NCBI GenBank assembly: GCA_002781785.1
Contig: PFGC01000041.1
Coordinates: forward strand, 145-64,144
Source of the DNA: Candidatus Kerfeldbacteria bacterium CG15_BIG_FIL_POST_REV_8_21_14_020_45_12
GTDB taxonomy: Bacteria; Patescibacteriota; Patescibacteriia; UBA9570; XYC2-FULL-38-9
DNA: 64,000 bases
Reading direction: 5' to 3'
Shown here in pieces: positions 4,208 through 53,311 of the stretch. Within the stretch, counting starts at the first letter, position 1. Every line of letters starts with the position of its first letter. Under the pieces are notes generated by a model. That model saw nothing but the letters and a program-made list of their open reading frames with translations, searched no databases and had not been told where the DNA came from. Made by a program: the position numbers and the translations under genes.

Positions 4208-5170
4208 ATGAAAGTACTCTTAACTGGCGCTGCTGGTTTTATTGGATCGCACGTAGCCGACCTGCTCATCAAACAGGGTCATTCGGTTATTGCCGTAGAC
4301 AACTTTAACGATTACTACAATCCTGACTTTAAAGAAGATAACGTCTCTCACTTAATTGGCCACGAGGCGTATCAGTTGGTTAGAGCAGACATCACTAACG
4401 AAGCCTCAATGCGGGCTGTTTTTTCTGAGCATAAACCTGATGCCATTATCCACCTAGCCGCCCAAGCTGGAGTTAGAATTTCTATTCAAGAACCTCTGCG
4501 AGCAGCCACCAATAACATAACTGCAACCTACATCTTACTGGAACTGGCTCACGAATTCGGTGTTAAAGATTTCGTCTTTGCGTCATCTTCTTCGGTGTAC
4601 GGCAACCAGGAAAAAACCCCTTTCTCAGAATCTGACCCAGTTGACCTACCTATATCACCTTACGCTGCCACCAAAAAAGCTTGTGAGCTAATCGCCTACA
4701 CTTATCATCATCTCTATAAAATGAACTGCGTTGGCCTGCGGTTCTTCACAGTCTATGGTGAGCGAGGACGGCCGGACATGTCACCTTATATTTTTGCAGA
4801 TGCGATTATCAATGATAAGCCACTAAGACGATATGGTGACGGCTCCATGGAGCGGGACTTCACATACATAGATGATATTGCCAGCGGCGTGGTGGCCTGC
4901 CTTGGAAAAGATCTTGGTTACGCTATTATCAACCTCGGTAATTCAAACTCCGTAACACTTCGCGATTATATTGCTACATTTGAAAAAATTCTTGGTAAGT
5001 CAGCTATTATTGATGAGCAACCGTTACAACCAGGCGATGTCTTTAAAACCTACGCCGATGTTTCTCAAGCAAAAGCCCTTTTGAACTGGGAACCAACCAC
5101 GGATTTAGAAACCGGCCTTACTAAATTTTTAACTTGGTTCAAAGAGAACCGATCAGGTAAACCCTTATAA
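4208..5170 (+). CDS. NAD-dependent epimerase/dehydratase (extended SDR; UDP-glucuronate/UDP-hexose 4-epimerase-like)
   Basis: Rossmann motif TGAAGFIGSH and catalytic YAATK (YxxxK). Confidence 0.8.
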   Translation: MKVLLTGAAGFIGSHVADLLIKQGHSVIAVDNFNDYYNPDFKEDNVSHLIGHEAYQLVRADITNEASMRAVFSEHKPDAIIHLAAQAGVRISIQEPLRAATNNITATYILLELAHEFGVKDFVFASSSSVYGNQEKTPFSESDPVDLPISPYAATKKACELIAYTYHHLYKMNCVGLRFFTVYGERGRPDMSPYIFADAIINDKPLRRYGDGSMERDFTYIDDIASGVVACLGKDLGYAIINLGNSNSVTLRDYIATFEKILGKSAIIDEQPLQPGDVFKTYADVSQAKALLNWEPTTDLETGLTKFLTWFKENRSGKPL

Positions 5171-5171
5171 C

Positions 5172-6110
5172 ATGAAATACTCCGTCGTCATTCCTGTTTT
5201 CAATGAAGAAGAAAATGTTTTAGAGCTACACCCAGCGGTGACTGAAGCTATGGATAAAATAGGTGATCCTTATGAAATTATCTTTGTTGATGACGGTTCG
5301 TCTGATCGAACAGTTGAAAATCTTCAAGGGCTTTCTCCGGTAACCATTATTCGCCTACGAAAAAACTTTGGGCAAACCGCCGCGATGGACGCTGGTATCA
5401 AACAAGCCAAAGGTGAGTTTATTATCACTTTAGATGGAGACGGACAAAATCCCCCTTCTGAAATTCCAAAGCTACTTAAAGTTATGGAGACTGGAAACTA
5501 CGATGTTGTTTCTGGATGGCGCCGTCACCGCCATGACACCTTCATGAAGAAAGCTGTTTCGCGTGGTGCTAATCTCCTGAGAAAAGTATTTGTTAAAGAT
5601 AATATCCACGATTCTGGCTGTTCTCTGAAAGTATACCGTAGAGAATGCTTTGATAATGTTGATCTATTTGGTGAGATGCACCGATTTATTCCCGCTGTCT
5701 TAAGCTGGTCAGGCTACACAGTTGGCGAGGCTGAAGTTGAACACCAACCACGCCGCCATGGAGTTTCAAAATATGGTTGGAAACGTATAATCAAAGGGTT
5801 GATTGATATGATTTCAGTCTTCTTTTGGCGCAAGTATGCTAGCCGACCACTTCATTTGTTTGGAGCAGCTGGCTTACTGCTAATTGGTGGCGGTGGTTTA
5901 CTTGGAGTCGCTTTGGCCGTTAGAAAATTTATCTTTGACGTGCCCCTTAGCGAATCAAATTTACCCCTCTTAATGGTCCTGCTGTTCGTGCTTGGTGTGC
6001 AGTTCTTTGTCTCCGGACTTCTGGGAGACATTGTTATCCGAAACTACTACAGTGGCGGTCGAAAACCTTACGCGGTTCGAGAGGTTATCATAAAAACCAA
6101 AACCGACTAA
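5172..6110 (+). CDS. GT2 polyprenyl-phosphate glycosyltransferase (GtrB/DPM1/ArnC-like) with a C-terminal TM pair
   Basis: N-terminus MKYSVVIPVFNEEENV, DDGSSD and DGDGQ (DxD) motifs, and two C-terminal hydrophobic helices. Paralogous to 51011..51976. Confidence 0.8.
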   Translation: MKYSVVIPVFNEEENVLELHPAVTEAMDKIGDPYEIIFVDDGSSDRTVENLQGLSPVTIIRLRKNFGQTAAMDAGIKQAKGEFIITLDGDGQNPPSEIPKLLKVMETGNYDVVSGWRRHRHDTFMKKAVSRGANLLRKVFVKDNIHDSGCSLKVYRRECFDNVDLFGEMHRFIPAVLSWSGYTVGEAEVEHQPRRHGVSKYGWKRIIKGLIDMISVFFWRKYASRPLHLFGAAGLLLIGGGGLLGVALAVRKFIFDVPLSESNLPLLMVLLFVLGVQFFVSGLLGDIVIRNYYSGGRKPYAVREVIIKTKTD

Positions 6111-6117
6111 CTCGCTC

Positions 6118-7254
6118 ATGCGTGTTCTCGTTCTAAATCCAGAATATCCACCCTTGGGCGGCGGAGCTGCTAATGCCACTGCTTATTTACTGCGCGAGTT
6201 ATCAAAACATAAAAATATTAGCGTTGACCTAGTCACTGCTTCAGTTGATGGTGAGCGCACAGAACAACTCAGCGACAACATCACTCTGCACTTTCTTGAT
6301 ATAAAAAAGGAGGGGTCGCTCCATTACTACACAAATCGACAACTGTTACGATATCGCCAGCTAGCTCTACTCAAGTCTCGTCAATTACATACTCAAAAAC
6401 CTTTTGATCTAGTTCACGCCTTTTTTGGCATACCATCTGGAGTCATTGCCAAGCAACTACATATTCCCTACATCGTCAGCTTAAGAGGTTCGGATGTCCC
6501 CTATTACAATCCACGTTTCCGACTAGCTGATCGTCTATTCTTTAAACATCTTAGTCGTTATGTCTGGAAACACGCCAATTACGTAGTGGCCAATAGTCAA
6601 CAACTAGCTGATCTAGCCGGTCGTACATCGCCCAATCTAAAAATCCCTGTCATTAGAAACGGGGTCGACATTACTGAATTTACACCGGCCGCCGAAGAGC
6701 CCAGCACCGACACATTTAACATTCTCTGTGTCTCCCGTTTAGTGGGCCGCAAAGGTATTGATAGATTGATTGAAGCTGTTGCAACCATTTCGAAAACCCA
6801 CCCCCAGGTTCAACTGTCATTGGCTGGAGATGGAAATATTAAAAACCAGCTTGAGCATCAAGCTAAGCAGTTAAACGTATCTGATCGAGTTAAATTTCTA
6901 GGAGCAATTGATCATGCAACCTTGCCAAACCTTTACCAACAAAGCCACTTATTTGTATTACCTTCTCGCAACGAGGGTATGTCAAACACAGCTCTAGAAG
7001 CACTAGCTTCAGGTCTACCGCTTATTTTAACCGATACCGGAGGAGCCGCTGAGCTAACCCAAGGAAATGGCAAAACAGTACCGATTGACGATCAAATTGC
7101 CCTTGTAGAAGCTATAAAAGAAATTATGGTCGACACTACACTACGCCAAAGCTTACGTACTTCTAGCCGAAAAAAGTCTGAACAGTACGCCTGGTCAGCT
7201 ATGGCTGACTCATACATAAACCTCTACGAGCTAGTTGTCTCGCCACCACGCTGA
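6118..7254 (+). CDS. Glycosyltransferase family 4 (GT-B, retaining)
   Basis: C-terminal E-x7-E region PSRNEGMSNTALEALASGLPLILTDTGG. Confidence 0.8.
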   Translation: MRVLVLNPEYPPLGGGAANATAYLLRELSKHKNISVDLVTASVDGERTEQLSDNITLHFLDIKKEGSLHYYTNRQLLRYRQLALLKSRQLHTQKPFDLVHAFFGIPSGVIAKQLHIPYIVSLRGSDVPYYNPRFRLADRLFFKHLSRYVWKHANYVVANSQQLADLAGRTSPNLKIPVIRNGVDITEFTPAAEEPSTDTFNILCVSRLVGRKGIDRLIEAVATISKTHPQVQLSLAGDGNIKNQLEHQAKQLNVSDRVKFLGAIDHATLPNLYQQSHLFVLPSRNEGMSNTALEALASGLPLILTDTGGAAELTQGNGKTVPIDDQIALVEAIKEIMVDTTLRQSLRTSSRKKSEQYAWSAMADSYINLYELVVSPPR

Positions 7255-11419: not shown

Positions 11420-11434
11420 TTAAGTCCTCGCGGC

Positions 11435-12157
11435 ATGATGAAGCTAATAAAAAATGGTTGGCGGAGAGTTGGAAATAGATTTGGCTCTTCAAATAAATAT
11501 TTCCTACAATCGCCTGCTGGCATGTTGCAACGTCAAGCCGTCTCAGCCGCTCTTAAGACCTACGCCAAAGGGGTCTTGCTCGACATCGGAGCTGGGCGCC
11601 AAGTCTATCGCAGCTTTCTGCCTGAAACAGTCACCTATCGTTCTCTAGATTTCGCGGACACCGAGGAAAACTATGAAAAAAACCGAGCTCTCGATATCAT
11701 CGGTGACGCGCAAAATATTCCACTCGATGACGAATCCATCGACACAGTTCTTTGTACTGAAGTCCTTGAACATCTACCTGAGCCACAACTGGCTGCCAAA
11801 GAAATAATTCGCCTGCTAAAACCAGGTGGTTATGCCATTGTCACGGTACCTTTTCTTGGTTACTACCACGATGAACCTTGGGATTATTACCGATTCACTA
11901 AGCACGGCCTCCAACAAATGTTGGTTACTGAATCAACTGAGCTTATCAGCGAGGCTGGCTTAGGTGGTTTATTTGTCTACCTTGGATATATCAGGTCTAC
12001 CATCTACTTAGGACTGGCCGTTTACATACCTGGCCTGTTTCAATTTGCTTTCTACACTAATATAATACTCTCTAAGCTCGATATCCTGCTGGACAAGCTA
12101 ACTGGCACCACAAGTCTTATGCCAGTCACAAATATTATTGTCGTGCGTAAACGCTGA
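11435..12157 (+). CDS. Class I SAM-dependent methyltransferase (type 11-like)
   Basis: LLDIGAGRQ motif I and LLKPGGYAIV. Confidence 0.65.
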   Translation: MMKLIKNGWRRVGNRFGSSNKYFLQSPAGMLQRQAVSAALKTYAKGVLLDIGAGRQVYRSFLPETVTYRSLDFADTEENYEKNRALDIIGDAQNIPLDDESIDTVLCTEVLEHLPEPQLAAKEIIRLLKPGGYAIVTVPFLGYYHDEPWDYYRFTKHGLQQMLVTESTELISEAGLGGLFVYLGYIRSTIYLGLAVYIPGLFQFAFYTNIILSKLDILLDKLTGTTSLMPVTNIIVVRKR

Positions 12158-13069: not shown

Positions 13070-14037
13070 AAACTGCACTAATTACCGGAATTACCGGACA
13101 AGACGGTTCCTATTTAGCCGAGCTTCTACTAGAAAAAGGCTATCGTGTTATTGGCATGGTTAGACGCTCTTCCGTTGAACGTTATGAACGACTTGAACAT
13201 ATTCAAGAAAATATTGAGCTAGTGCAAGGAGACCTGCTAGATCAATCATCCATGCAAGAACTTATCCAGGAATACAAACCAACCGAGGTGTACAACCTGG
13301 CCGCACAATCATTCGTGCCAACTTCCTGGCAACAACCAGTCTTAACTGGGGAATTCACCGCTCTTGGCGTTACCCGCATTCTGGAAGCTATTCGCCATGT
13401 CAATAAGGATATTAAATTCTACCAAGCCTCAAGCTCAGAAATGTTTGGCATGGTTCAAGAGGTTCCACAGACAGAAAAAACTCCCTTCTACCCACGTTCG
13501 CCTTATGGAGTTTCAAAACTTTATGGTCACTGGATTACAGTCAATTACCGTGAAAGTTATGACATGTTTGCTGTCAGTGGCATTCTATTTAATCACGAGT
13601 CTCCACGACGTGGACTTGAATTTGTCACCAGAAAAATCGCCTACAATGTAGCTAAAATTTCACTCGGCCTAGCTAAAACTCTTCCTTTAGGAAATTTAGA
13701 CGCAGAAAGAGACTGGGGTTTTGCTGGTGATTACGTTAAAGCCATGTGGCTCATGCTCCAACAAGAAAATCCAGAAGATTTTGTTATTGGAACTGGAGAA
13801 ACTCACTCAGTTCGAGAGTTCTGTAAAATTGCTTTCAATCACATAGGAAAAAACTACGAAGACTTTGTAACTGTCGACGAGCGATTTATGCGTCCAGCTG
13901 AAGTAGATCAACTCTTAGGCGATGCCAGCAAAGCTAAGAAAATTCTTAACTGGGAACCTGAGGTATCTTTTGAAAAACTGGTCACCATGATGGTTGAGTC
14001 TGACATTGAGTTTTTAAAAAAAGTTAAAAAGTCCTAA
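13066..14037 (+). CDS. gmd: GDP-mannose 4,6-dehydratase
   Basis: Diagnostic N-terminus [26 protein letters not shown], then SSEMFG and [10 protein letters not shown], along the whole length. Confidence 0.9.
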
Positions 14038-15152
14038 TGGACCAGAGTCGTCCTAAACGAGTAGCTTTTTTTGCCAGAGCCCTGACTCAAGGTGGAGTTA
14101 CTCGTTTTTTGGTAAACCTATTTCACAATCTCCAAAGTGACACCAACATAGAATACATTCTATTTACCGACGACGAATCATTAGTTGAAACCTTTCCAGG
14201 AATGACTGTAGTGGTTGTTAAATCCAAACACAAACTACTGTGGGATTATTTCGCCTCATTAAAAGCAGCTAAAAAATACAACGTCGACATTGTATTTTAC
14301 ACCAAGAACATCGTGCCTTTTAGTCATTTCCGACTACCAGCCAAGAAGGTTATTTTTGTATATGACCTAGGGTATTACGAAAAAACCATACAAGCCTATC
14401 CTTTTATGGATACGTTATATATGAAAATGCATTTTCCATTTTCGGTCAGACAAGCCCACGCTATTCTGCCTATCTCTAGCTACACTAAAGATGACCTTAT
14501 CGCCAAACTTAAAGCTGATCCCAAAAAAATAACAGTCATGCTACTAGCGGCGGAAGACTGGTACCAGCACAATGACGACTCAAATAAGATTTCAGCAGTT
14601 AAAGATAAATATAAAATATCTTCACCTTTTTTGTTCTATTGCGGAAACCTCAGTGAGCGTAAAAATCTTCGCCGGGTGATTGAAGCTTTTAATCAAATTA
14701 AAGATCAGATTCCTGATCATAATCTATACTTTGCTGGACCAAAAACTCTCGGCAGTGAAGCAGACTTAGAGCTGGCTAGCACTCTACTCGGTGATCGCTT
14801 TAAACACATTGGCTTTGCCGATGAGGCTGATATGCCTGCGCTATATTCAGCAGCAGACGTCTATCTCTTTCCATCTCTCTACGAAGGCTTTGGCCTACCA
14901 ATACTTGAGGCCAATGCCTGTGGCTGCCCAGTGCTAACCTCTAACGCCACTAGCTGTCCAGAAATTGCTGGTACTGGAGCGCACATTGTTGACCCTCTGT
15001 CCGTTTCCGAAATCGCTGATGGTATTTTAAAAATTACCACAAACTCCACCTACAAAGATGAGCTAGTGCAACGCGGATATGACAATGTTAAAAACTACAA
15101 CTGGAAAAAAACGGCTCAAGTAGTTAAAGGCGTTATCACAGACTTATTGTAA
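14037..15152 (+). CDS. Glycosyltransferase family 4
   Basis: FPSLYEGFGLPILEANACGCPVLTSN (E-x7-E). Confidence 0.8.
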   Translation: MDQSRPKRVAFFARALTQGGVTRFLVNLFHNLQSDTNIEYILFTDDESLVETFPGMTVVVVKSKHKLLWDYFASLKAAKKYNVDIVFYTKNIVPFSHFRLPAKKVIFVYDLGYYEKTIQAYPFMDTLYMKMHFPFSVRQAHAILPISSYTKDDLIAKLKADPKKITVMLLAAEDWYQHNDDSNKISAVKDKYKISSPFLFYCGNLSERKNLRRVIEAFNQIKDQIPDHNLYFAGPKTLGSEADLELASTLLGDRFKHIGFADEADMPALYSAADVYLFPSLYEGFGLPILEANACGCPVLTSNATSCPEIAGTGAHIVDPLSVSEIADGILKITTNSTYKDELVQRGYDNVKNYNWKKTAQVVKGVITDLL

Positions 15153-15161
15153 GATAGACCA

Positions 15162-15809
15162 ATGAAAACTGTAGCCATTTTTGATTTCTGCGACACCATT
15201 GTCGGACTGCAATCAGCTGATCGCTTTATTGAATTTGTCTCAGCCACGCGACCAACTCGACTAGCTGGCACCATTGACCTAATCTGGAGACCACTAAAAA
15301 AGAGACACCTCATGCCAAACTGGATTGGCAAGAGAATGATAGCTCTAAAATTGAGAGGACTGCCTGAAAAAGATATGCCTGCCATTGTTAATAAATATGT
15401 CGAAGAAATTCTTATCCCAGCTCAACACCCAGGAATTATCGCTAAACTTCAAGCTCACCTAGATAAAGGCGATCAAGTAATTATCGCATCAGCTGGCTAC
15501 TCACCATATATTAAAGAATTCGCCAGACGTCTTGGGATAACACACATAGCCGCTACCGACCTTAAGATAAAACGAGGACTCTATTCTGGTCGCTTTGACG
15601 GTTTAAACTGTTACGGTAAAAATAAAATTATAAAACTAAAAAATCTACTTGAATTATCAGAAATAAACAAAGCAGACTCACATGTCTACTCAGATGATTT
15701 AAGTGACAAGCCACTTTTTGACCTAGTCAACCACAAGCACTTAGTTATTTCAGAGCGTCAAAATAAAACGGAAGTGCCAGACGGTTACCAAGTCCTCCGC
15801 CTATTCTAA
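15162..15809 (+). CDS. HAD-IB-like hydrolase (phosphoserine-phosphatase-like), variant motif I
   Basis: VAIFDFCDTIV resembles the HAD motif IFDFDGT, but the second Asp is replaced by Cys. Motif IV-like YSDDLSDKPL. Confidence 0.5.
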   Translation: MKTVAIFDFCDTIVGLQSADRFIEFVSATRPTRLAGTIDLIWRPLKKRHLMPNWIGKRMIALKLRGLPEKDMPAIVNKYVEEILIPAQHPGIIAKLQAHLDKGDQVIIASAGYSPYIKEFARRLGITHIAATDLKIKRGLYSGRFDGLNCYGKNKIIKLKNLLELSEINKADSHVYSDDLSDKPLFDLVNHKHLVISERQNKTEVPDGYQVLRLF

Positions 15810-16981
15810 TTGGAAGATCCGACAACCGCTTTTACCGCCTCAATTATCTTGGCGTTTTCAACTTCAGTTCGACAAGCTATTCGCACAAACGCGCCTTTTT
15901 CTAGACCAATTTTGTCAGTACAAGTTCTAACATACACACCGAATCTCGAGAGCATAGCGATAAAAAAATCATCAGCAGACATGCCATTTTCAATCTCACA
16001 TAGGTAGAAATTTGCCTGACTAGGATACACCCTAATTCCATTAATAGCTCCGAGCTCTTCACCGAACTTTTTCATTTCATTAATATACCGTTGTCGGACT
16101 TGACCATATTTATTTTGAAAATCTTCCTGCGCATACAGTCTGAAAAAGTATTCAGCCAGACCCGATGAATTCCACAAGTATCCATTCTCCAGCAACTCAG
16201 CCACGCGGTCGCTGGACAAGATTCCATAACCAGCTCGAACACCGGCAATGCCAAAGTCTTTCGACATACTCTTTATCACAACCAGGTTAGGATACTTGGA
16301 TATTAACTTTCCCACAGATGGAATGGTATCATCACCTTCGGACGCAAAGTGGATAAAACTCTCATCAATTATCACTACACTTAGATCCTGTAATTCCTCT
16401 AGCAACTCTCCCACCTGAACCTGCGTTAAGTAAGTACCAGTCGGATTGTTTGGATTTATTAAAATAGCGGCCCCAGCCCCGTTCTCCCTAACAAACTTTA
16501 CATAGTCTGAGACGTCTAACGCAAAATCATTTTCCTTACTAAGTTCGTAAAACACCGGCTTAACTCCTTCCGGTGCAAATTCATAGTACGAAGAAAAAGT
16601 TGGAATACTCAATACCACCGATCCACGAACAAACCTATGTAGAACAGCTTGAATAATTTCAATGGCACCGTTGGCTACAAATATATTTTTAGAATCAACT
16701 CCAAGTTGGGGACCAATCACCTCAGCTAGCCCACTATTATGAGTTGGATAAAATTCCAAAACGTCGCGCAATTTTCCGGTGTCAATCAAATCTTCTTGCA
16801 TGGATTGCATAAACAAATCCGTCGCATATGGATTTGATAAAAAACAGGCGTCCACTGAAATTTCCAGTTCTGGTATCTTGGAACGAATTGAGGCGATGCT
16901 AGGAGAGTGGGTTCCAGCTCCCTTTTTCATCTCTAATAACTTATTTTCAATAAAATGTGGTGAAGTTTCGCTCATAAACAA
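15806..16981 (-). CDS. PLP-dependent aminotransferase class I/II (HisC / CobD threonine-phosphate-decarboxylase-like)
   Basis: PLP-lysine region KSMSKDFGIAGVRAGYG and the NPNNPTG motif (INPNNPTGTY). Confidence 0.75.
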   Translation of the reverse strand: MFMSETSPHFIENKLLEMKKGAGTHSPSIASIRSKIPELEISVDACFLSNPYATDLFMQSMQEDLIDTGKLRDVLEFYPTHNSGLAEVIGPQLGVDSKNIFVANGAIEIIQAVLHRFVRGSVVLSIPTFSSYYEFAPEGVKPVFYELSKENDFALDVSDYVKFVRENGAGAAILINPNNPTGTYLTQVQVGELLEELQDLSVVIIDESFIHFASEGDDTIPSVGKLISKYPNLVVIKSMSKDFGIAGVRAGYGILSSDRVAELLENGYLWNSSGLAEYFFRLYAQEDFQNKYGQVRQRYINEMKKFGEELGAINGIRVYPSQANFYLCEIENGMSADDFFIAMLSRFGVYVRTCTDKIGLEKGAFVRIACRTEVENAKIIEAVKAVVGSSN

Positions 16982-16982
16982 A

Positions 16983-18818
16983 TTACGTCAATTTATCTAA
17001 TGGAACATTAGCCTCTGGCAAACACTGTATCACGGGTAGATGGTGTTCTCCAAAAACATGTTTAGTTGTCTTATATGGAAATAACTGCCCACGACCTGCG
17101 TAATCAAGAACCATTTGTTTAGTTAAATTATCGTCCCGAAATGGCTCTAAATGAATCAGTGTGCTCATATAATCAACTGTAACAGCCGGCAATCTTTTTA
17201 GCCCTAACCTTTGGGCCACTCGGTAACGATGATGGCCGTCCAGGATGGTGTGCGTCTTGGCGTCGACAAGTAATGGCTTCTTAACTAAATTATCAGCAGA
17301 AACCTCTTCAGCTAACTGTACAACGTAATCTTCATCAACTTCCTCATGAGCCTTTAGTGAAGCTACGTCTAGGATCTCAATCGGCGACTCCCGCAAGACA
17401 GTATCCCTATTTGCATTTAACTCATAAGGCACCTCAGAAATTGTATGTCGAAGCTTACCACCTTTTCCAGGCACAATACTCTGCACAACCTCCCAGTGAA
17501 CAGTTCCTCCTCGCACAAATTGTTTTACTTGATCATGCAATTCGCTCAAATCAGCCTCTGGATATTCAAGAACCACATTTACTCTAAACAAATCAAGATC
17601 TTCTTGAATTACCTGAAACTGTCTAATCTTATCTTCAAACTCACGAAATAACTTAAACCAAAGATGAGTTACCAAAACCGTACCATCCTGCAATGGCATA
17701 AGATCGTTTATCCTGCCTTCTATAGAACGAAACATAGGCAAGCTCCTGCCACACTCACACTGCGCAGTGGGGTCCTCAGCAATTCCCCGATCACCTACCT
17801 TATACCTAATAAATGGCAGGGCCCGATCAGTGAAATCAGTATAAACAATATCTCCCAACACTCCCGATGGCGCAGTTGTTCCATCAGGCATAACTACTTC
17901 ACCATACGCCTTGTCGGACATAATATGCATCCCCTTCTTCGCACACTCGTGCGCCATAAGACCTATCTCGGTTCCACCGTAACGGTTGTAAACCGGACAC
18001 TGAAAGGCCTTTTCAATCAACTCTCGAGACTCGTTCGATAAATACTCAGCTCCTGTCACAATCGACTCTGGGCTGTATGCTTCAATTTTATGGTCAATAA
18101 TATATTGAGCCATGTAAACAAATGAACTAACATAGCCGTCAATTACAGCTGGCTTAAATTTATTCAGCTGAAGCAGGAATTGATCGACCCTCTCTGGCGA
18201 TAACACGCTATTTTCTGGATCTTCCACGTTATAAATTGATAACTCCAAACGCCTCCCAAACACATTTTGCAATAAGGTGCTTTTAGCATCCTTAGTACCA
18301 GTCCGCCAAAAACGAGCATTACGCGCGCCAAGAAAGTGCCCATACCACTCAATCGTCCGTAAAAATCCTCCCATGCGCTCAGCCTTGCCATCTTCGTTAA
18401 TCGGAAATATAAACGGCACTCCCGATGAACCAGTGGTCTTAAGCATGACAATTTTTTCCTCTGAACTTCCAACCTCACCCGCTTTCAGAGCATCCTTTAG
18501 CTCCTCTTTAGTAGTCAATGGAAACTTTTGAATGTCTTCTAAAGATTTAAGATCACTAGGCTTAACTCCCGCTTTAGTAAATTTATTTTTGTAAAAAACC
18601 GTATGCTCATAGGCAAACGTAACTATCTCTTGCAGTCTCTTTAACTCCAAATCTCTTAAAGCCGCCTGATCATACCACTGTGTCTTATCATAAAACCTAT
18701 AGTATTTGTATACTCTAGGCTGGCCCAAACGCAGAGCCGCTAAAAAAAACTTGTGTGTCAGGTCACCTTTTTTCATATATTGCGCCCTAAAGCTACCACA
18801 TTTACCCAACTGGCTCAA
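16983..18818 (-). CDS. CapK-like adenylate-forming enzyme (phenylacetate-CoA-ligase/F390-synthetase family) fused to a C-terminal ParB/Srx-like domain
   Basis: N-terminal region carries the AMP-binding motif KTTGSSGVPFIF. The C-terminal ~110 aa carries KKPLLVDAKTHTILDGHHRYRVAQRLGLKRLPAVTVDY, which matches the ParB/sulfiredoxin core (P-x-V-x..DGHHR..A...LGL..vP..V). The true start is probably the internal MKKGDL. Confidence 0.65.
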   Translation of the reverse strand: MSQLGKCGSFRAQYMKKGDLTHKFFLAALRLGQPRVYKYYRFYDKTQWYDQAALRDLELKRLQEIVTFAYEHTVFYKNKFTKAGVKPSDLKSLEDIQKFPLTTKEELKDALKAGEVGSSEEKIVMLKTTGSSGVPFIFPINEDGKAERMGGFLRTIEWYGHFLGARNARFWRTGTKDAKSTLLQNVFGRRLELSIYNVEDPENSVLSPERVDQFLLQLNKFKPAVIDGYVSSFVYMAQYIIDHKIEAYSPESIVTGAEYLSNESRELIEKAFQCPVYNRYGGTEIGLMAHECAKKGMHIMSDKAYGEVVMPDGTTAPSGVLGDIVYTDFTDRALPFIRYKVGDRGIAEDPTAQCECGRSLPMFRSIEGRINDLMPLQDGTVLVTHLWFKLFREFEDKIRQFQVIQEDLDLFRVNVVLEYPEADLSELHDQVKQFVRGGTVHWEVVQSIVPGKGGKLRHTISEVPYELNANRDTVLRESPIEILDVASLKAHEEVDEDYVVQLAEEVSADNLVKKPLLVDAKTHTILDGHHRYRVAQRLGLKRLPAVTVDYMSTLIHLEPFRDDNLTKQMVLDYAGRGQLFPYKTTKHVFGEHHLPVIQCLPEANVPLDKLT

Positions 18819-18888
18819 GTCAAATCAAGCCAATCTTACAGCAACTCAAAAGTTCACATGCAAGCCGTCACGTTCATTCTAATATTAG

Positions 18889-18918
18889 TTGTAATCCACC
18901 GATGATTTATGTTATAAT
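18889..18918 (+). promoter_or_regulatory. Sigma70-like promoter for the 18939-24609 operon
   Basis: TTGTAA (18889-18894), 18-nt spacer, consensus TATAAT (18913-18918). Lies about 20 nt upstream of the ATG at 18939. Confidence 0.4.
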
Positions 18919-18938
18919 CCCCGCCAAGTATAGACGGA

Positions 18939-21344: not shown

Positions 21345-23150
21345 GTGATGCTTCTCTTTACTCGGTTGAAACAGCACGGTCCTAGTATCATTGGCATCAC
21401 AGCACTATTGGCTTTGTCGCTTAACCAAGTTTTTCACTCTTTTTTTAACTTAACCGTCTGGCCACCGCTGAAGCTTGGACTGTTCATAATAACGATAGCC
21501 TGGGTTACACTTAAACTTACCGAAAACCAGATTAGCGGCCAAGACACTAGTAAAAAATATCCACTCCACCACTGGTTACCGGGAGTAGCGCTTGTTTTAA
21601 TACTAGCAGCCGGCCTATTACTGAGACTCTACCATTTAGGCTACCTGGGCCTTAGTACCGACGAAGGGTCAACGGCTTTATTTAGTCACGCCATTTCAAT
21701 CAGTGGGCTACCCTGCATAGACGGCGAGTGCTACTTACGTGGCTTCCCTTATCTATACCTAGTGTCATTTTTTACAGGCATTTTTGGTAGCACAGAATTT
21801 TGGGTGAGACTGCCGGGCTTAGCTATCACAGCAACTATTATTCCACTGATGTATTTTATCACCAAGCGTCTGAGCAATCACTCATCAGCGCTTATTGTAG
21901 TTTCACTTGTGGCCTTTACCGACTGGAATATGATGCTGAGTCGCTACGCTCGAATGTACAATCTACTTTTGCTATTCATCCTTATTTCCATCGCTCTCTT
22001 TTCACATTACCTAAAAAAACAGCAATGGTGGATAGGCTTCCTGTTGGTTATTAGCTCAGGATTGGCTATGGTTACACACCAATTTGGATTGTTGCTGGGC
22101 TTTATATCACTACACCTTATTGTAACTAAAAGACCATTTACCATCAAAGACGGTTTTCTCAGCGGTGGAATTATACTAGCAGCGGTATATGTTCTGACTC
22201 AAGTCCCCGGCCTAACCTATGAAACAGGCTTTCAATCCATTTATAGCATTGTTCCACAACGACTCCAAAGTGATCAATTTTGGTTTTTGAGCAACCTGCA
22301 ATTTCCTCAGTTTACTTACTTCAAGGAATTGTTCATTTACCAAGCACCGTTATTTTCCCTGTTAATTGGCGGGACGCTAGCCCGAATTGCTCAATTACGA
22401 AATGGTGGTTGGAAAAAAATAGACCCTTCGATCAATTCTTTTTTCTATATATTTATTGTTGGGATATTTCTAGCGCTAGCTTTTTACAACATTAATTATT
22501 CACTAAAATACCTGTGGTGGATTTTAACCCTGATCCTGATACCAATTGGTACCATTATTTTCCATCTTTTTCGCGATAAAAAAATAGTTGCCGTCGGCCT
22601 AACGCTAATTATTTTGGCAGCAAACATTCCTGGAGTGATCACGGTTTTGGGTAGGGATTATGGCGATATCCAAACTGACCGCCCCCTTCTCATGTCATCG
22701 GAAGCTGAATCTTACTATCCTGATGACAAGACGCCAGTTGAATACGTTATCACTCATATGCAGCCCGGTGATATAATTATCACAGACTACTTTATTCACA
22801 ATGTATATTTGGAACTTCAAATAGGTGCTCAAAGTAACTATTTTGTACTACCAGAATCACCTACCCGCTTCCTGCAAACTTATCCATACTACGGACTTTA
22901 TCGAGACACTAATAACTGGCGACTACGAGAACATGGATCAATCCTGATTCACACTAGCACCGAGCTTGCACAAATAATCAATCAAGCCGATACTACGGTT
23001 TGGATTATCACTGCCGTTGATTTTTCAGGTAAGCAGCACAAAATTTCAAACGGTGGGGTCACGCGCTATTTACGAAATAATTACACAGGAAGCATCGTTT
23101 ACACAGGATTCGATGACAACAGCCAAGTCTATGCCATCAACCCAAGATAA
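21345..23150 (+). CDS. GT-C fold membrane glycosyltransferase (PMT/ArnT-like, GT39/GT83-like)
   Basis: More than 10 predicted TM helices. First extracytoplasmic loop has an acidic DE motif (LGLSTDEGSTALF) as in the PMT/ArnT families. C-terminal soluble domain. Confidence 0.55.
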   Translation: MMLLFTRLKQHGPSIIGITALLALSLNQVFHSFFNLTVWPPLKLGLFIITIAWVTLKLTENQISGQDTSKKYPLHHWLPGVALVLILAAGLLLRLYHLGYLGLSTDEGSTALFSHAISISGLPCIDGECYLRGFPYLYLVSFFTGIFGSTEFWVRLPGLAITATIIPLMYFITKRLSNHSSALIVVSLVAFTDWNMMLSRYARMYNLLLLFILISIALFSHYLKKQQWWIGFLLVISSGLAMVTHQFGLLLGFISLHLIVTKRPFTIKDGFLSGGIILAAVYVLTQVPGLTYETGFQSIYSIVPQRLQSDQFWFLSNLQFPQFTYFKELFIYQAPLFSLLIGGTLARIAQLRNGGWKKIDPSINSFFYIFIVGIFLALAFYNINYSLKYLWWILTLILIPIGTIIFHLFRDKKIVAVGLTLIILAANIPGVITVLGRDYGDIQTDRPLLMSSEAESYYPDDKTPVEYVITHMQPGDIIITDYFIHNVYLELQIGAQSNYFVLPESPTRFLQTYPYYGLYRDTNNWRLREHGSILIHTSTELAQIINQADTTVWIITAVDFSGKQHKISNGGVTRYLRNNYTGSIVYTGFDDNSQVYAINPR

Positions 23151-27747: not shown

Positions 27748-27778
27748 CAGCCTCCTAATTGGAGGCTGTTTTTATTTT
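27748..27778 (+). terminator. Rho-independent terminator at a convergent gene junction
   Basis: Stem CAGCCTCC (27748-27755), 5-nt loop, stem GGAGGCTG (27761-27768), then TTTTTATTTT. Located 9 nt after the aminotransferase stop codon. Confidence 0.6.
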
Positions 27779-29958: not shown

Positions 29959-30005
29959 GAAATCAGTATAGCTTGACAGGCCCTCTCAAGCAACACCAGG
30001 TCAGC

Positions 30006-33283: not shown

Positions 33284-33285
33284 AT

Positions 33286-35134: not shown

Positions 35135-35137
35135 ACT

Positions 35138-35365: not shown

Positions 35366-35367
35366 AC

Positions 35368-48635: not shown

Positions 48636-48638
48636 ATT

Positions 48639-51985: not shown

Positions 51986-53311
51986 CTAGGATTTTTGGTC
52001 ACCAAACTCACCGTTACGCCCGATAGAAATGTAGGTCAATCCATGTTCCCGCATTCGTTCAGGTTGGAAGAGATTTCTACCATCAAATATCACTGGATTT
52101 GCAACGAGACGAGCAACTTTTGCCCAATCTAGTTCAATAAACTGTGGCCACTCGGTGGCAATTACCACAACATCAGCTCCGTTAACACAATCATAAGGGT
52201 CTTCTGCATAACGAACTGCCACACCCTCAAGAGCACGCTGAGCATTCTTGGTAGCCTCATAGTCAAAGGCTGAAACATCTGCCCCATTTTCAGCAAACAT
52301 TCTAACGATATCAACTGCCGCCGATTCTCTAATGTCGTCCGTATTACCCTTAAAGGCTAAGCCTAATATGGCGATCTTCTTTCCAGTCAGCTTGCCTTCA
52401 AAGTGTTCCATGACCTTGGCCACAAAATGTTTCCTTTGATCATTATTCACCTCAATAACAGCGGACAAGAGCTTAAAATCATAGCCATACATTCCGGCCA
52501 TTTGATCAAGTGCTTCTACATCCTTTGGGAAACATGAGCCTCCCCAGCCTATGCCGGCTTTCAAAAAGCGTGGTCCAATTCTACTATCTAAACCAATACC
52601 GTAGGCCACCTCTTCAATATCAGCCCCGGCTCGCTCACAAATCTGTGCGATCTCATTGATGAATGAAATTTTTGTTGCCAAAAAGGCGTTGCTGGCATAC
52701 TTAATCAATTCGGCACTTTCAACCGTAGTTACCAACTTCTCTCCACGGATACCTTTAAATACCTCGAGCAAGACCTGCGCAGCTCGATCATCCCTGGCTC
52801 CAATTACCACTCGGTCAGGTTTCATAAAATCTTCAACGGCAGAACCTTCGCGTAAAAATTCTGGGCAAGACACTACACTAAACTCACCAGAATAGTTTTT
52901 TCGAATGATATCCTCTACCTCTTTACCAGTCCCAACCGGAACCGTACTTTTATTGACGATCGCTGTATATTTTTTCAAATTCTGCCCGATCTGCTCGGCA
53001 ACGGCATAGACATATTGCAAATCTGCATGTCCGTCTGGGCGAGACGGTGTTCCCACGGCGATGACAATGACATCTGTCTTATCTATCACATCCGGCAGCG
53101 AGGTTGTAAATTTAAGGCGGCCGACTCGCACGTTACTCAAAACTAGTGCATCTAGTCCCGGCTCAAAAATTGGAATCTCCCCTTTCTCTAAACGCTTAAT
53201 TTTATCCTCGTCTATATCAACACAGGTCACTGAGTGGCCAATTTCTGCAAGGCATGTTCCTGAGACCAATCCTACGTACCCGGTCCCGACAACTGTAATA
53301 TTCATAGTCAA
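51986..53311 (-). CDS. ugd: UDP-glucose 6-dehydrogenase
   Basis: NITVVGTGYVGLVSGTCLAEIGHSVTCVDIDEDKIKRL, catalytic Cys region GWGGSCFPKD, and a C-terminal UDP-binding domain. Confidence 0.9.
   Translation of the reverse strand: MTMNITVVGTGYVGLVSGTCLAEIGHSVTCVDIDEDKIKRLEKGEIPIFEPGLDALVLSNVRVGRLKFTTSLPDVIDKTDVIVIAVGTPSRPDGHADLQYVYAVAEQIGQNLKKYTAIVNKSTVPVGTGKEVEDIIRKNYSGEFSVVSCPEFLREGSAVEDFMKPDRVVIGARDDRAAQVLLEVFKGIRGEKLVTTVESAELIKYASNAFLATKISFINEIAQICERAGADIEEVAYGIGLDSRIGPRFLKAGIGWGGSCFPKDVEALDQMAGMYGYDFKLLSAVIEVNNDQRKHFVAKVMEHFEGKLTGKKIAILGLAFKGNTDDIRESAAVDIVRMFAENGADVSAFDYEATKNAQRALEGVAVRYAEDPYDCVNGADVVVIATEWPQFIELDWAKVARLVANPVIFDGRNLFQPERMREHGLTYISIGRNGEFGDQKS

What the first reader, a model, noticed from the sequence alone, without database searches (positions are those of the whole stretch)
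15806..18818. CapK-like adenylating enzyme fused to a C-terminal ParB/sulfiredoxin-like domain, co-operonic with a HisC/CobD-like PLP enzyme
Seen in sequence: the 611-aa ORF combines a phenylacetate-CoA-ligase/CapK-type adenylation core (KTTGSSGVPFIF) with a C-terminal ParB/Srx core (..PLLVDAKTHTILDGHHRYRVAQRLGLKRLPAVTVDY). Immediately downstream, 2 nt away, is a class I/II aminotransferase/decarboxylase-like PLP enzyme.

Established knowledge: CapK-like enzymes in capsule loci activate carboxylates for amide formation. ParB/Srx folds bind nucleotides (CTP/ATP), and in sulfiredoxin the domain performs ATP-dependent chemistry on a sulfur oxyacid.

Inference: this is an unusual domain combination for a glycan-tailoring enzyme. 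In a locus that also makes PAPS, a Srx-like nucleotide/sulfur-oxyanion binding domain on an adenylating enzyme deserves a look. It could direct an amino-acid/aminoalcohol amide onto a uronic acid, or it could have a second nucleotide-dependent activity.
Basis: partly seen in the sequence, partly recalled or inferred. Interest (0 to 1): 0.6.

Follow-up and report, generated by a model that had tools for sequence, protein, structure and literature searches.

The report
Serine-to-ethanolamine amide glycan decoration module
A candidate-phylum bacterium fuses a small serine kinase to an amide-forming ligase next to a phosphoserine decarboxylase and a phosphatase, which together probably convert free serine into an ethanolamine amide on a sugar acid of the cell surface, a new enzyme solution to chemistry already known from the Campylobacter capsule.

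Summary
A 611-aa ORF (16983-18818, minus strand; 597 aa from the annotated ATG) joins a PaaK/CapK-type adenylating ligase to a C-terminal ParB/Srx-fold domain, and a PLP enzyme gene follows 1-7 nt downstream. It is not a frameshift artefact: two other assemblies carry the same fusion.

The C-terminal domain is a shortened free-serine-kinase (SerK/SbnI) homologue. Structure search ranks SerK and SbnI first, and the SerK catalytic Glu, DGHHR and KTTxH motifs are 92-100% conserved in 141 relatives. Stand-alone relatives sit beside or are fused to CysK/CysM-type enzymes.

The PLP enzyme is 54% identical to the Campylobacter Cj1436-position L-serine-phosphate decarboxylase. It matches PDB 6OUX at 1e-101. 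The convergent HAD-IB gene resembles the Cj1435-position phosphatase.

The closest ligase relatives are fused or adjacent to a Cj1437-like serinol-phosphate transaminase, and a phosphatase follows.

Best model: serine, then phosphoserine, then phosphoethanolamine, then an ATP-dependent amide on a lipid-linked sugar acid, then dephosphorylation. This is a new variant of a known kind. The fusion is rare (three protein clusters) and uncharacterised, and no step has been tested biochemically.

The parts
17433..18776 (-). PaaK/CapK-type (ANL superfamily) adenylating ligase domain, aa 15-462 of the 611-aa ORF. Proposed amidoligase that couples a sugar-acid carboxylate to phosphoethanolamine.
   Evidence: PaaK structures match at E 1.4e-25. 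NCBIfam PaaK and F390-synthetase-related models match but lie far below their cut-offs. The precomputed Pfam hit is PF27533 CapK_C. Motifs present: A3 TTGSSGVPF aa 128-136, A5 YGGTE 280-284, A7 YKVGD 339-343, A8 GRINDL 368-373, A10 GKGGKLRH 451-458.
17382..17432 (-). Linker between the ligase and kinase-like domains (aa 463-479).
   Evidence: pLDDT is low over the first ~11 residues of the C-terminal model (aa 455-465). This stretch is poorly conserved among the three fusion proteins.
16986..17381 (-). Shortened SerK/SbnI-like ParB/Srx-fold domain ('mini-SerK', aa 480-611). Proposed free L-serine kinase that makes O-phospho-L-serine. Key residues: H491-E492 (17343-17348), D527-G-H-H-R531 (17226-17240), K583-T-T-K-H587 (17058-17072).
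   Evidence: NCBIfam SerK E 1.1e-14. phmmer against PDB: SerK 5X0B and 1VK1 at about 6e-10, in two pieces that skip SerK residues 97-203. AF2 model pLDDT 90.8. The top nine Foldseek hits are SerK or SbnI, TM 0.64-0.70. Motifs are 92-100% conserved in 141 relatives.
15806..16981 (-). PLP-dependent decarboxylase of the Cj1436/SMUL_1544 type (annotated start ATG 16975). Proposed reaction: O-phospho-L-serine to O-phosphoethanolamine. PLP-lysine motif SMSKDFG at 16250-16270.
   Evidence: PDB 6OUX matches at E 1e-101 over the full length. 54% identity (E 4e-152) to the Cj1436-position protein of C. upsaliensis, against 25% to the Cj1437-position protein. The best NCBIfam match is CobD, below its cut-off.
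15162..15809 (+). HAD-IB phosphatase, convergent with the PLP gene and overlapping it by 4 nt. Proposed to remove the phosphate from the phosphoethanolamine amide, as Cj1435 does. Motif I DFCDT at 15183-15197.
   Evidence: PF12710 at 7.8e-24 and TIGR01490 at 134 bits, above its 98.3-bit cut-off. 29% identity (E 3e-27) over the full length to the Cj1435-position HAD. 28-35% identity to the HADs that follow the ligase in L012, L013 and L019.
4208..7254 (+). SDR epimerase/dehydratase (4208-5170), ArnC-like polyprenyl-phosphate sugar synthase GT2 (5172-6110) and GT4 glycosyltransferase (6118-7254). These are conserved partners of the ligase that lie about 10 kb away in this genome.
   Evidence: 49-64% identical to the three genes directly upstream of the fusion gene in L001. 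The GT2 and GT4 that directly precede the ligase, or sit one methyltransferase gene upstream, in L002, L003, L012 and L019 also best-hit these window genes at 40-47%. The GT2's best NCBIfam match is ArnC (177.6 bits, full length).
21345..23150 (+). PMT_2 (ArnT-like GT-C) membrane glycosyltransferase. Possible final transferase for the decorated lipid-linked sugar. Its membership of the module is tentative.
   Evidence: PF13231 at 2.1e-12. PMT_2 or DUF2142 membrane proteins recur near the ligase in L002, L012 and L019.
51986..53311 (-). UDP-glucose 6-dehydrogenase (TuaD-like). Possible source of the uronic acid. It is distant from the ligase, so its membership of the module is tentative.
   Evidence: All three UDPG_MGDP_dh Pfam domains are present. 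NCBIfam TuaD scores 579.9 bits. L013 has two UDP-sugar dehydrogenases within 7 kb upstream of the ligase fusion.

Best explanation
The fusion protein, the downstream PLP enzyme and the convergent HAD phosphatase most likely form a self-contained four-step pathway that turns free L-serine into an ethanolamine amide on a carboxyl-bearing sugar of a cell-surface glycan.

1. The C-terminal mini-SerK domain phosphorylates free L-serine to O-phospho-L-serine. The phosphate donor (ATP, ADP or CTP) is unknown.
2. The Cj1436/SMUL_1544-like PLP enzyme decarboxylates it to O-phosphoethanolamine.
3. The CapK/PaaK-like domain adenylates a carboxylate, and the amine of phosphoethanolamine attacks to give an amide plus AMP. 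The carboxylate is most plausibly C6 of a hexuronic acid or another sugar acid on a polyprenyl-phosphate-linked intermediate made by the conserved ArnC-like GT2.
4. The HAD-IB phosphatase removes the phosphate.

The decorated sugar is then presumably exported and transferred by a GT-C (PMT_2) enzyme.

Basis of each step:
- Steps 2 and 4 rest on strong or moderate homology to enzyme types that have been characterised.
- Step 1 rests on fold, motif conservation and gene context.
- Step 3 rests on ANL motifs, the gene-fusion pattern and the VpsH precedent.
- The identity of the acceptor is inferred from neighbourhood only.
- Nothing has been shown biochemically for these proteins.
For: Kinase domain:
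- Best HMM match is SerK (1.1e-14), better than generic ParB_N.
- It aligns to SerK 20-96 and 204-227, including the His-Glu site that is mutated in PDB entries 5X0E and 5X0J (E30A, E30Q).
- The AF2 model (pLDDT 90.8) hits SerK and SbnI first, TM 0.64-0.70, against about 0.41 for ParB and 0.35-0.39 for Srx.
- H491, E492, DGHHR and KTTxH are 92-100% conserved in 141 family members.
- Stand-alone relatives lie directly next to CysK/CysM/SbnA-type PALP enzymes in three lineages, and one (P0261) is fused to such an enzyme. Threonine synthase models score much lower. This is the SerK-to-cysteine-synthase and SbnI-to-SbnA logic (PMC5120207).

Decarboxylase:
- E 1e-101 to 6OUX.
- 54% identity to the Cj1436-position gene in a locus with the Cj1438-1437-1436-1435 gene order.
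- Cj1436 decarboxylates L-serine phosphate (PMC11800397).

Phosphatase: homologous to the Cj1435-position HAD and to the HADs that follow the ligase elsewhere.

Ligase as amine-coupling enzyme:
- All 16 ligase+PLP fusions of about 810 aa carry a Cj1437-like domain (31-37% identity, E 1e-48 to 1e-73). Cj1437 is the transaminase that makes serinol phosphate.
- L019 has ligase, Cj1437-like PLP enzyme and HAD as separate adjacent genes.
- Phosphoethanolamine and serinol phosphate share only a free amine and a phosphate ester, so the ligase must supply the carboxylate partner.
- The fusion-then-decarboxylase gene order is conserved in L001.
- VpsH, a PaaK/CapK-like protein, is genetically required for the glycine amide on L-GulNAcA of a lipid-linked intermediate (PMC13463779).

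Glycan context: the locus has an ArnC-like GT2, a GT4, PMT_2 and a Ugd.
Against: - The kinase-like domain lacks about 100 residues of the SerK/SbnI C-terminal domain. It scores far below the curated SerK and SbnI cut-offs (54 vs 380 bits; 17 vs 350 bits).
- No member of the short family has been assayed, as far as I could find.
- The ligase shows no closer detectable relationship to any characterised amide ligase than to PaaK.
- The carboxylate substrate is not identified. The Ugd is 33 kb away, and one related locus (L019) carries NeuB instead.
- The HAD gene is on the opposite strand, so co-regulation is not shown.
- The conserved GT2 and GT4 partners are about 10 kb away in this genome.
- That PDB 6OUX is SMUL_1544, and that this enzyme prefers serine phosphate, rests on an identical molecule name and my recollection of Keller et al. 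2016/2019, not on a paper I could read.
Confidence: 0.6

Rival explanations
1. The C-terminal ParB/Srx-fold domain is a non-catalytic nucleotide-binding (CTP/ATP) regulatory or scaffolding module that gates the ligase. Phosphoserine for the decarboxylase comes from ordinary metabolism (the SerA/SerC pathway).
For: The domain is truncated relative to SerK and SbnI. ParB-fold domains act as NTP binders or switches in many fusions, and a SerK-like protein bound CTP (PMC12704722). Campylobacter and the ligase+transaminase fusions manage without a dedicated kinase.
Against: The equivalent of the SerK catalytic Glu, together with DGHHR and KTTxH, is 92-100% conserved across 141 relatives. Relatives are repeatedly adjacent or fused to cysteine-synthase-type enzymes, not to regulators. 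The kinase-like domain occurs only in the ligase variant that is paired with the serine-phosphate decarboxylase. It is absent from the variant paired with the DHAP transaminase, which needs no kinase.
Confidence: 0.12
2. The ligase does not amidate a glycan carboxylate. One possibility is that it nucleotidylates phosphoethanolamine or its hydroxyl, as F390 synthetase does, to make an activated donor such as ADP-ethanolamine. Another is that it acts on a non-sugar carboxylate, for example a fatty or aromatic acid, giving an N-acyl-ethanolamine phosphate.
For: The family includes F390 synthetase, which forms a phosphodiester, and CoA ligases. No acceptor has been identified. The ligase P-loop lacks the terminal Lys of classical ANL enzymes (sequence).
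Against: A dedicated phosphatase follows the ligase in five loci. That fits removal of a phosphate after coupling (the Cj1435 logic) and is unnecessary for a nucleotide-activated donor. The constant partners are an ArnC-like GT2, a GT4 and GT-C proteins. VpsH is a precedent for uronic-acid amidation.
Confidence: 0.12
3. The pathway uses L-threonine. The kinase makes O-phospho-L-threonine and the CobD-like enzyme makes (R)-1-amino-2-propanol phosphate, giving an aminopropanol amide.
For: The best NCBIfam match of the PLP enzyme is CobD, the threonine-phosphate decarboxylase (163 bits). The substrate specificity of the short kinase family is unknown.
Against: The PLP enzyme is far closer to 6OUX (344 bits) and the Cj1436-position protein (54% identity) than to Salmonella CobD 1LC5 (59 bits). 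T. kodakarensis SerK rejects threonine (PMC5120207). The family's partners are cysteine-synthase-type enzymes.
Confidence: 0.08
4. One reading: a sulfiredoxin-like domain performs ATP-dependent chemistry on a sulfur oxyanion, functionally tied to PAPS synthesis in the locus.
For: The fold is shared with Srx. ATP sulfurylase and APS kinase genes are in the window.
Against: There is no Cys at the Srx catalytic position (DGHHR). The TM-score to Srx is 0.35-0.39, against 0.70 to SerK. The PAPS genes are more than 23 kb away and absent from all related loci examined. The family's conserved partners are serine- and cysteine-pathway enzymes.
Confidence: 0.03

Closest known systems
Campylobacter jejuni HS:2 glucuronamide pathway (Cj1436 decarboxylase, Cj1437 transaminase, Cj1438 C-terminal amidoligase, Cj1435 HAD phosphatase; PMC11800397)
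   Same: The logic is the same: make a phospho-amino-alcohol, couple it ATP-dependently to a sugar C6 carboxylate after the sugar is incorporated, then remove the phosphate. The decarboxylase (54% identity to the C. upsaliensis positional orthologue) and the HAD (29% identity) are homologous. The relatives' fused PLP domain is Cj1437-like.
   Different: The amidoligase is not homologous: an ANL/PaaK/CapK-type adenylating enzyme here, an ATP-grasp (TupA-type) domain there. A serine-kinase-like domain is added and fused to the ligase. The glycan machinery differs: ArnC-like GT2, GT4 and GT-C here, an ABC-transporter-dependent capsule there. The host is a candidate-phylum (Kerfeldbacteria) organism.
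Free serine kinases SerK (T. kodakarensis TK0378; PDB 5X0B) and SbnI (S. aureus; PDB 5UJE)
   Same: It has a ParB/Srx-fold N-terminal domain with the catalytic Glu and DGHHR motif, plus the C-terminal KTT(R/K)H segment. These are the top sequence and structure matches. The gene is coupled to an enzyme that consumes phosphoserine.
   Different: It is about 135 aa instead of about 240-255 aa, because SerK residues 97-203 are missing. It lies far below the curated family cut-offs. It occurs here as the C-terminal domain of a ligase. Its product would feed a decarboxylase rather than a cysteine synthase or SbnA. Activity and phosphate donor are untested.
VpsH of Vibrio cholerae (PaaK/CapK-like; glycine amidation of L-GulNAcA on a bactoprenyl-linked disaccharide; PMC13463779)
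   Same: It is a PaaK/CapK-like enzyme in a polysaccharide locus that is required for amide formation on a uronic-acid carboxylate of a lipid-linked intermediate.
   Different: The amine there is glycine rather than a phospho-amino-alcohol, and VpsH has no fused kinase or PLP partner. I could not obtain the VpsH sequence, so direct similarity was not measured. VpsH's own mechanism is not yet established biochemically.
SMUL_1544 (PDB 6OUX) and CobD of cobamide biosynthesis
   Same: The PLP fold and full-length similarity match (E 1e-101 to 6OUX). The predicted reaction, decarboxylation of an O-phospho-amino acid to a phospho-amino-alcohol that is then amide-linked to a carboxylate, parallels the CobD/CbiB logic.
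   Different: The window has no cobamide genes. The amide-forming partner is an ANL ligase, not CbiB. The enzyme scores below the curated CobD cut-off (163 vs 290 bits).
ArnC/ArnT-type lipid-linked sugar modification (L-Ara4N pathway)
   Same: An ArnC-like GT2 and an ArnT-like GT-C (PMT_2) are conserved near the ligase. This suggests that a sugar is modified while on a polyprenyl phosphate carrier and then transferred outside the membrane.
   Different: There are no ArnA, ArnB or ArnD homologues. The modification would be an amide on a carboxylate. This link is inference from neighbourhood only.

Membership tests
ParB N-terminal domain / ParB-CTPase fold (PF02195) | Score at or above the Pfam gathering threshold | tested here: not met
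   24.0 bits against a 26.3-bit cut-off, E 4.1e-5. A newer precomputed Pfam release lists a weak hit.
ParB N-terminal domain / ParB-CTPase fold (PF02195) | Three-dimensional fold shared with ParB N-domains | tested here: met
   The AF2 model (pLDDT 90.8) matches ParB and Noc structures with Foldseek probability 1.0 and TM about 0.41 over about 103 columns.
ParB N-terminal domain / ParB-CTPase fold (PF02195) | CTP-binding GERRxRA-type arginine motif of canonical ParB clamps (known from the literature) | tested here: not met
   The equivalent position reads L-D-G-H-H-R-Y (aa 526-532). There is no HTH or dimerisation domain.
Sulfiredoxin (Srx) | Catalytic cysteine in the (F/S)GCHR motif (known from the literature) | tested here: not met
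   The motif is DGHHR, with His529 at the Cys position. That position is 99% His in 141 relatives.
Sulfiredoxin (Srx) | Closest structural neighbour | tested here: not met
   Srx TM is 0.35-0.39 (rank 22 and below), against 0.64-0.70 for SerK and SbnI (ranks 1-9).
Free serine kinase SerK/SbnI | Curated NCBIfam equivalog cut-off | tested here: not met
   SerK 54.1 bits against 380; SbnI 17.1 bits against 350.
Free serine kinase SerK/SbnI | Catalytic Glu (SerK E30) and DGHHR nucleotide-binding motif | tested here: met
   E492 aligns with the SerK residue that is changed in the E30A and E30Q structures. DGHHR is present. These positions are 99-100% conserved in 141 relatives.
Free serine kinase SerK/SbnI | Complete two-domain architecture (about 240 aa) | tested here: not met
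   Only SerK 20-96 and 204-227 have counterparts, so about 100 residues are missing. The median family length is 138.5 aa.
Free serine kinase SerK/SbnI | Genomic coupling to a PLP enzyme that consumes O-phosphoserine | tested here: met
   In this window the partner is the Cj1436-like decarboxylase 1-7 nt downstream. Relatives are coupled to CysK/CysM/SbnA-type enzymes, either adjacent (L004, L006, L008) or fused (P0261).
Free serine kinase SerK/SbnI | Phosphorylation of free L-serine | not testable with these tools
   This requires an enzyme assay.
ANL superfamily, PaaK/CapK branch | Adenylation core motifs A3, A5, A7, A8 and the A10 lysine | tested here: met
   TTGSSGVPF, YGGTE, YKVGD, GRINDL and GKGGKLRH are present. 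All are conserved in P0002, and those within the partial P0003 are conserved there too.
ANL superfamily, PaaK/CapK branch | Phenylacetate-CoA ligase equivalog cut-off | tested here: not met
   TIGR02155 scores 118 bits against 646. All nine NCBIfam hits are below their cut-offs. The domain is a family relative, not a PaaK.
L-serine-phosphate decarboxylase (Cj1436/SMUL_1544 type) | Full-length similarity to the characterised enzyme types and a PLP-binding lysine | tested here: met
   E 1e-101 to 6OUX over residues 17-389. 54% identity to the Cj1436-position protein. The SMSKDFGIAGVR motif is conserved.
L-serine-phosphate decarboxylase (Cj1436/SMUL_1544 type) | Decarboxylation of O-phospho-L-serine in preference to O-phospho-L-threonine | not testable with these tools
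   This requires an assay. The CobD equivalog cut-off is not met (163 vs 290 bits).
C. jejuni-type glucuronamide system (Cj1435-Cj1438) | ATP-grasp (TupA-type) amidoligase | tested here: not met
   The only ATP-grasp in the window (8067-9092) hits PylC-like, ATPgrasp_Ter and CPS-like models, not ATPgrasp_TupA. The ligase next to the decarboxylase is ANL-type.
C. jejuni-type glucuronamide system (Cj1435-Cj1438) | HAD phosphatase of the Cj1435 type | tested here: met
   PF12710 is present. 29% identity (E 3e-27) over the full length to the Cj1435-position HAD. Both share the DFC(D/E)T motif I.
C. jejuni-type glucuronamide system (Cj1435-Cj1438) | A uronic acid in the glycan as the amide acceptor | tested here: inconclusive
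   A Ugd is present but lies 33 kb away. L013 has two UDP-sugar dehydrogenases within 7 kb upstream of the ligase fusion. L019 has NeuB instead. No glycan structure is available.

The most novel reading that the evidence does not exclude
Two uncharacterised enzyme families are exposed here.

(a) A minimal free-serine kinase of about 135 aa ('mini-SerK') is widespread in small-genome Patescibacteria and DPANN archaea, with at least 301 clusters at 50% identity. It would be their entry point to O-phosphoserine, both for cysteine and Fe-S synthesis and for glycan decoration.

(b) A CapK/PaaK-type clade would be the general amidoligase joining phospho-amino-alcohols to sugar acids in uncultivated lineages. 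It would act on polyprenyl-phosphate-linked sugars within an ArnC/ArnT-like three-component pathway, and it would be a non-homologous replacement of the Campylobacter ATP-grasp enzyme.

The Kerfeldbacteria fusion would then be a self-sufficient route from scavenged serine to a charge-neutralising cell-surface ethanolamine amide.
Probability: 0.35. Interest if true: 0.7.

Novelty: new variant of a known kind. Interest (0 to 1): 0.55.

Why it matters
If correct, the finding gives testable functions to four things:
- a rare three-activity gene pair;
- a large family of short ParB-fold proteins that are currently annotated as ParB, transcriptional regulator or hypothetical;
- a clade of 'phenylacetate-CoA ligase' or 'CapK' genes that recur in glycan loci of uncultivated bacteria and archaea;
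- the neighbouring phosphatases.

It would show that amino-alcohol amidation of surface sugar acids, so far worked out only in Campylobacter, is widespread. It would also show that this chemistry has been assembled at least twice from non-homologous ligases.

It also suggests how organisms with minimal biosynthetic capacity obtain phosphoserine.

In practice it corrects misleading annotations and nominates small, easily expressed proteins for assay.

Tried and rejected
- Sulfiredoxin/PAPS link: rejected. There is no catalytic Cys, the structural match is weaker than to SerK, the PAPS genes are more than 23 kb away, and they are absent from related loci.
- Frameshift artefact: rejected. Three independent assemblies carry the fusion.
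- Homoserine kinase alternative for the mini-SerK family: rejected. The PALP partners score 136-339 bits to CysK/CysM models, against at most 61 bits to threonine synthase models.
- My initial assumption that the ~810-aa ligase+PLP fusions link the ligase to the decarboxylase: wrong. Their PLP domain is Cj1437-like, not Cj1436-like. This in fact strengthened the model.
- Scans for more copies of the fusion: two genome-contig scans and one metagenome scan found only distant (27-32% identity) ligase relatives without the kinase domain.
- Among 150 top mini-SerK profile hits, no other ligase fusion was found.
- Promoter and terminator scan of 13900-19100: neither class clearly exceeded the shuffled expectation.
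- Literature:
  - No held paper contains '6OUX'.
  - The Raushel papers on Cj1436, Cj1437 and Cj1435, the SbnI paper and the Keller 2019 paper could not be read.
  - The PNAS 2025 survey of ParB-fold fusions mentions no ligase, AMP-binding or aminotransferase fusion in its main text or its held supplements.
- A full-length structure prediction was not run, because its output (pLDDT and secondary structure only) would not show domain docking.

Full report
**Observation.** The window comes from a Candidatus Kerfeldbacteria (Patescibacteria/CPR) metagenome-assembled genome. Protein P0001, named from that organism, is 100% identical to the ORF. On the minus strand, ORF 16983-18818 encodes 611 aa from a TTG. 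The database protein starts at the ATG at 18776 and is 597 aa. The next gene, 15806-16981, starts 1 nt (TTG) or 7 nt (ATG, matching the 389-aa database protein P0135) after the stop codon. The fusion is real. P0002 (595 aa, 50% identity) and P0003 (partial, 65% identity) come from independent assemblies and have the same continuous architecture.

**Ligase domain (aa 15-462).**
- It matches PaaK structures (2Y27, E 1.4e-25).
- It matches PaaK and F390-synthetase-related NCBIfam models, all far below their cut-offs.
- It carries the newer Pfam family CapK_C.
- ANL motifs A3, A5, A7, A8 and the A10 lysine are present.

It is therefore an adenylating enzyme of the PaaK/CapK branch, but not a phenylacetate-CoA ligase.

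**C-terminal domain (aa 480-611).**
- Pfam ParB_N falls just below threshold (24.0 vs 26.3 bits). NCBIfam SerK, the ADP-dependent L-serine kinase, scores 1.1e-14, and SbnI also hits.
- Against PDB sequences the best matches are the free serine kinase SerK and its Pyrococcus orthologue (about 6e-10). The alignment is in two pieces, SerK 20-96 and 204-227. The domain is therefore a SerK without its middle ~100 residues.
- The alignment places H491-E492 on the His-Glu of SerK. That Glu is the residue replaced in the deposited E30A and E30Q structures, which were trapped with phosphoserine.
- An AlphaFold model built on 14 homologues is confident (pLDDT 90.8, pTM 0.83).
- Foldseek ranks nine SerK/SbnI entries first (TM 0.64-0.70). 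ParB and Noc CTPases follow at about 0.41, and sulfiredoxin at 0.35-0.39.
- The sulfiredoxin catalytic Cys position is His (DGHHR).

**The mini-SerK family.** A profile search of 1.84 billion representatives finds 301 clusters at E <= 1e-30, mostly stand-alone proteins with a median length of 138.5 aa. The named members are from Patescibacteria, Woesearchaeota and Nanoarchaeota. In 141 members the conservation is:
- H491 98% and E492 100%;
- D527 and G528 100%;
- H529, H530 and R531 99%;
- K583 and T584 92-93%, and H587 98%.

In three unrelated contigs the stand-alone gene lies directly next to a PALP enzyme. One representative (P0261) is fused to a PALP enzyme and another (P0393) to a SufS-like desulfurase. 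Those PALP partners score as CysK/CysM/SbnA-type enzymes (136-339 bits) and not as threonine synthases (at most 61 bits). This is the pairing known for SerK with cysteine synthesis in Thermococcus (PMC5120207) and for SbnI with SbnA. It argues that the short family makes O-phosphoserine.

**PLP enzyme.** It aligns over its full length to PDB 6OUX, 'threonine phosphate decarboxylase-like enzyme', at E 1e-101, with the PLP-lysine motif conserved. That molecule name is the annotation of SMUL_1544 of Sulfurospirillum multivorans, the gene that governs norcobamide synthesis (reference title). From memory, SMUL_1544 is an L-serine-O-phosphate decarboxylase (Keller et al. 2016/2019); I could not read those papers. 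Independently, the enzyme is 54% identical (E 4e-152) to the C. upsaliensis protein at the Cj1436 position of a locus whose gene order is Cj1438-1437-1436-1435. It is only 25% identical to the Cj1437-position protein. Cj1436 decarboxylates L-serine phosphate to ethanolamine phosphate (PMC11800397).

**Phosphatase.** The convergent gene 15162-15809 is a HAD-IB phosphatase (TIGR01490 above its cut-off). It is 29% identical over its full length to the Cj1435-position HAD, and both have the motif DFC(D/E)T. Cj1435 removes the phosphate from the phosphorylated glucuronamide.

**Comparative genomics of the ligase clade.** Its closest relatives (36-54% identity) come in four architectures:

| Architecture | Loci or proteins |
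|---|---|
| Ligase fused to the kinase-like domain, followed by the Cj1436-like decarboxylase | this window and L001, where the truncated downstream gene starts ...LLALKKRSGSHSPSISTVR |
| Proteins of ~690-840 aa (most about 810) in which the ligase is fused to a PLP domain | 16 of 16 domains are Cj1437-like (31-37% identity, E 1e-48 to 1e-73), not Cj1436-like |
| Ligase, Cj1437-like PLP enzyme and HAD as separate adjacent genes | L019 |
| Ligase followed by HAD only | L012 |

A phosphatase follows in every case where sequence is available: PHP in L002 and L003, and HAD PF12710 in L012, L013 and L019. Cj1437 makes (S)-serinol phosphate from dihydroxyacetone phosphate. The ligase is thus repeatedly wired to makers of two different phospho-amino-alcohols. 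These share only a free amine and a phosphate ester. It follows that they are the amine substrates and that the carboxylate comes from elsewhere.

The kinase-like domain appears only in the flavour that starts from serine. That makes sense, because DHAP needs no kinase. Many CPR organisms have reduced amino-acid biosynthesis (general knowledge), but I could not check this genome for serA or serC.

**Acceptor.** An ArnC-like GT2 (best NCBIfam match ArnC, 177.6 bits, full length) and a GT4 directly precede the ligase, or lie one methyltransferase gene upstream, in L001, L002, L003, L012 and L019. Their orthologues in this window are at 5172-7254, with an SDR at 4208-5170 (49-64% identity to L001). 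The module is therefore split in this genome. PMT_2 or DUF2142 GT-C proteins recur nearby. A TuaD-like UDP-glucose dehydrogenase is in the window, and L013 has two UDP-sugar dehydrogenases within 7 kb upstream of the ligase fusion. L019, however, has NeuB. As a precedent, V. cholerae VpsH, a PaaK/CapK-like protein, is genetically required for the glycine amide on L-GulNAcA of a bactoprenyl-linked disaccharide (PMC13463779). I therefore infer a sugar-acid carboxylate on a lipid-linked intermediate. This is the weakest step.

**Mechanism.**

| Step | Reaction | Proposed catalyst | Basis |
|---|---|---|---|
| 1 | L-serine to O-phospho-L-serine | mini-SerK domain | inferred |
| 2 | O-phospho-L-serine to phosphoethanolamine | PLP enzyme | strong homology |
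| 3 | adenylation of a sugar-acid carboxylate, then amide formation | ligase domain | inferred |
| 4 | dephosphorylation | HAD-IB phosphatase | moderate homology |

Rival explanations and their weights are listed separately.

**Comparison and novelty.** The chemistry parallels the Campylobacter HS:2 glucuronamide pathway. The differences are that the ATP-grasp amidoligase is replaced by a non-homologous ANL enzyme and that a kinase is added by fusion. The short SerK-like family fails the curated SerK and SbnI cut-offs and lacks half of the SerK architecture, so I do not file it as a SerK. I argue only that it works like one. The 2025 survey of ParB-fold fusions does not mention a ligase or aminotransferase fusion. 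Only three protein clusters in 5.8 billion carry the fusion. I rate it a new variant of a known kind.

**Caveats.**
- No biochemistry exists for any of these proteins.
- The HAD gene is on the opposite strand.
- The GT2 and GT4 partners and the Ugd are distant in this genome.
- Promoter and terminator scans were uninformative.
- Several key papers could not be read.

Noticed in passing
window 8067-9616 (+): An ATP-grasp enzyme (carbamoyl-phosphate-synthase-like, PylC-like N domain) overlaps the start of a HAD_2 phosphatase gene. This may be a second ligase-plus-phosphatase pair in the same glycan locus. It is not of the TupA/Cj1438 type.
   Followed up: partly
window 32552-36051 (+) and 39560-41979 (-): This cluster holds two MobA-like nucleotidyltransferases, an Fe-ADH_2 (glycerol-1-phosphate-dehydrogenase-like) gene and a CDP-alcohol phosphatidyltransferase. 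A second CDP-alcohol transferase lies next to a second PMT_2. The set looks like a CDP-activated polyol-phosphate decoration system.
   Followed up: no
window 41976-42602, 47244-50831 (-): PAPS-making genes (APS kinase; ATP sulfurylase with a PUA_2 domain) sit with a DHH-family protein and a PF01663 phosphodiesterase/sulfatase-like protein. No Pfam sulfotransferase hit was seen among the window ORFs scanned. These genes are unrelated to the fusion studied here.
   Followed up: partly
window 27772-29958 (-): This 728-aa ORF has no Pfam hit and lies in the stretch with the most extreme AT skew of the window (0.234 at 28001-30000).
   Followed up: no
proteins P0304, P0368, P0279, P0255-P0260: The mini-SerK domain is also fused to GalU-like nucleotidyltransferases and to a ferredoxin-reductase-type NAD-binding domain. 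It also occurs as tandem repeats of two copies. This suggests that the family may have substrates or roles beyond serine.
   Followed up: partly
window 15183-15197; L010 4697-5335: HAD motif I reads DFCDT in the window phosphatase and DFCET in the Campylobacter upsaliensis Cj1435-position phosphatase. In both, the usual Asp+2 general acid/base is a Cys.
   Followed up: no
window 10688-12157 (+); L012, L013, L019: SAM-dependent methyltransferase genes recur next to the ligase/PLP/HAD module in related loci, and two lie in this window. The amino-alcohol or the sugar may therefore be methylated as well.
   Followed up: no
L004 1339-2956 and L008 5030-9904: Stand-alone mini-SerK genes sit with serine dehydratase subunits (L004) or with SufS-like desulfurase and NifU genes (L008). 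This suggests a compact route from serine through cysteine to Fe-S clusters in small-genome organisms.
   Followed up: partly
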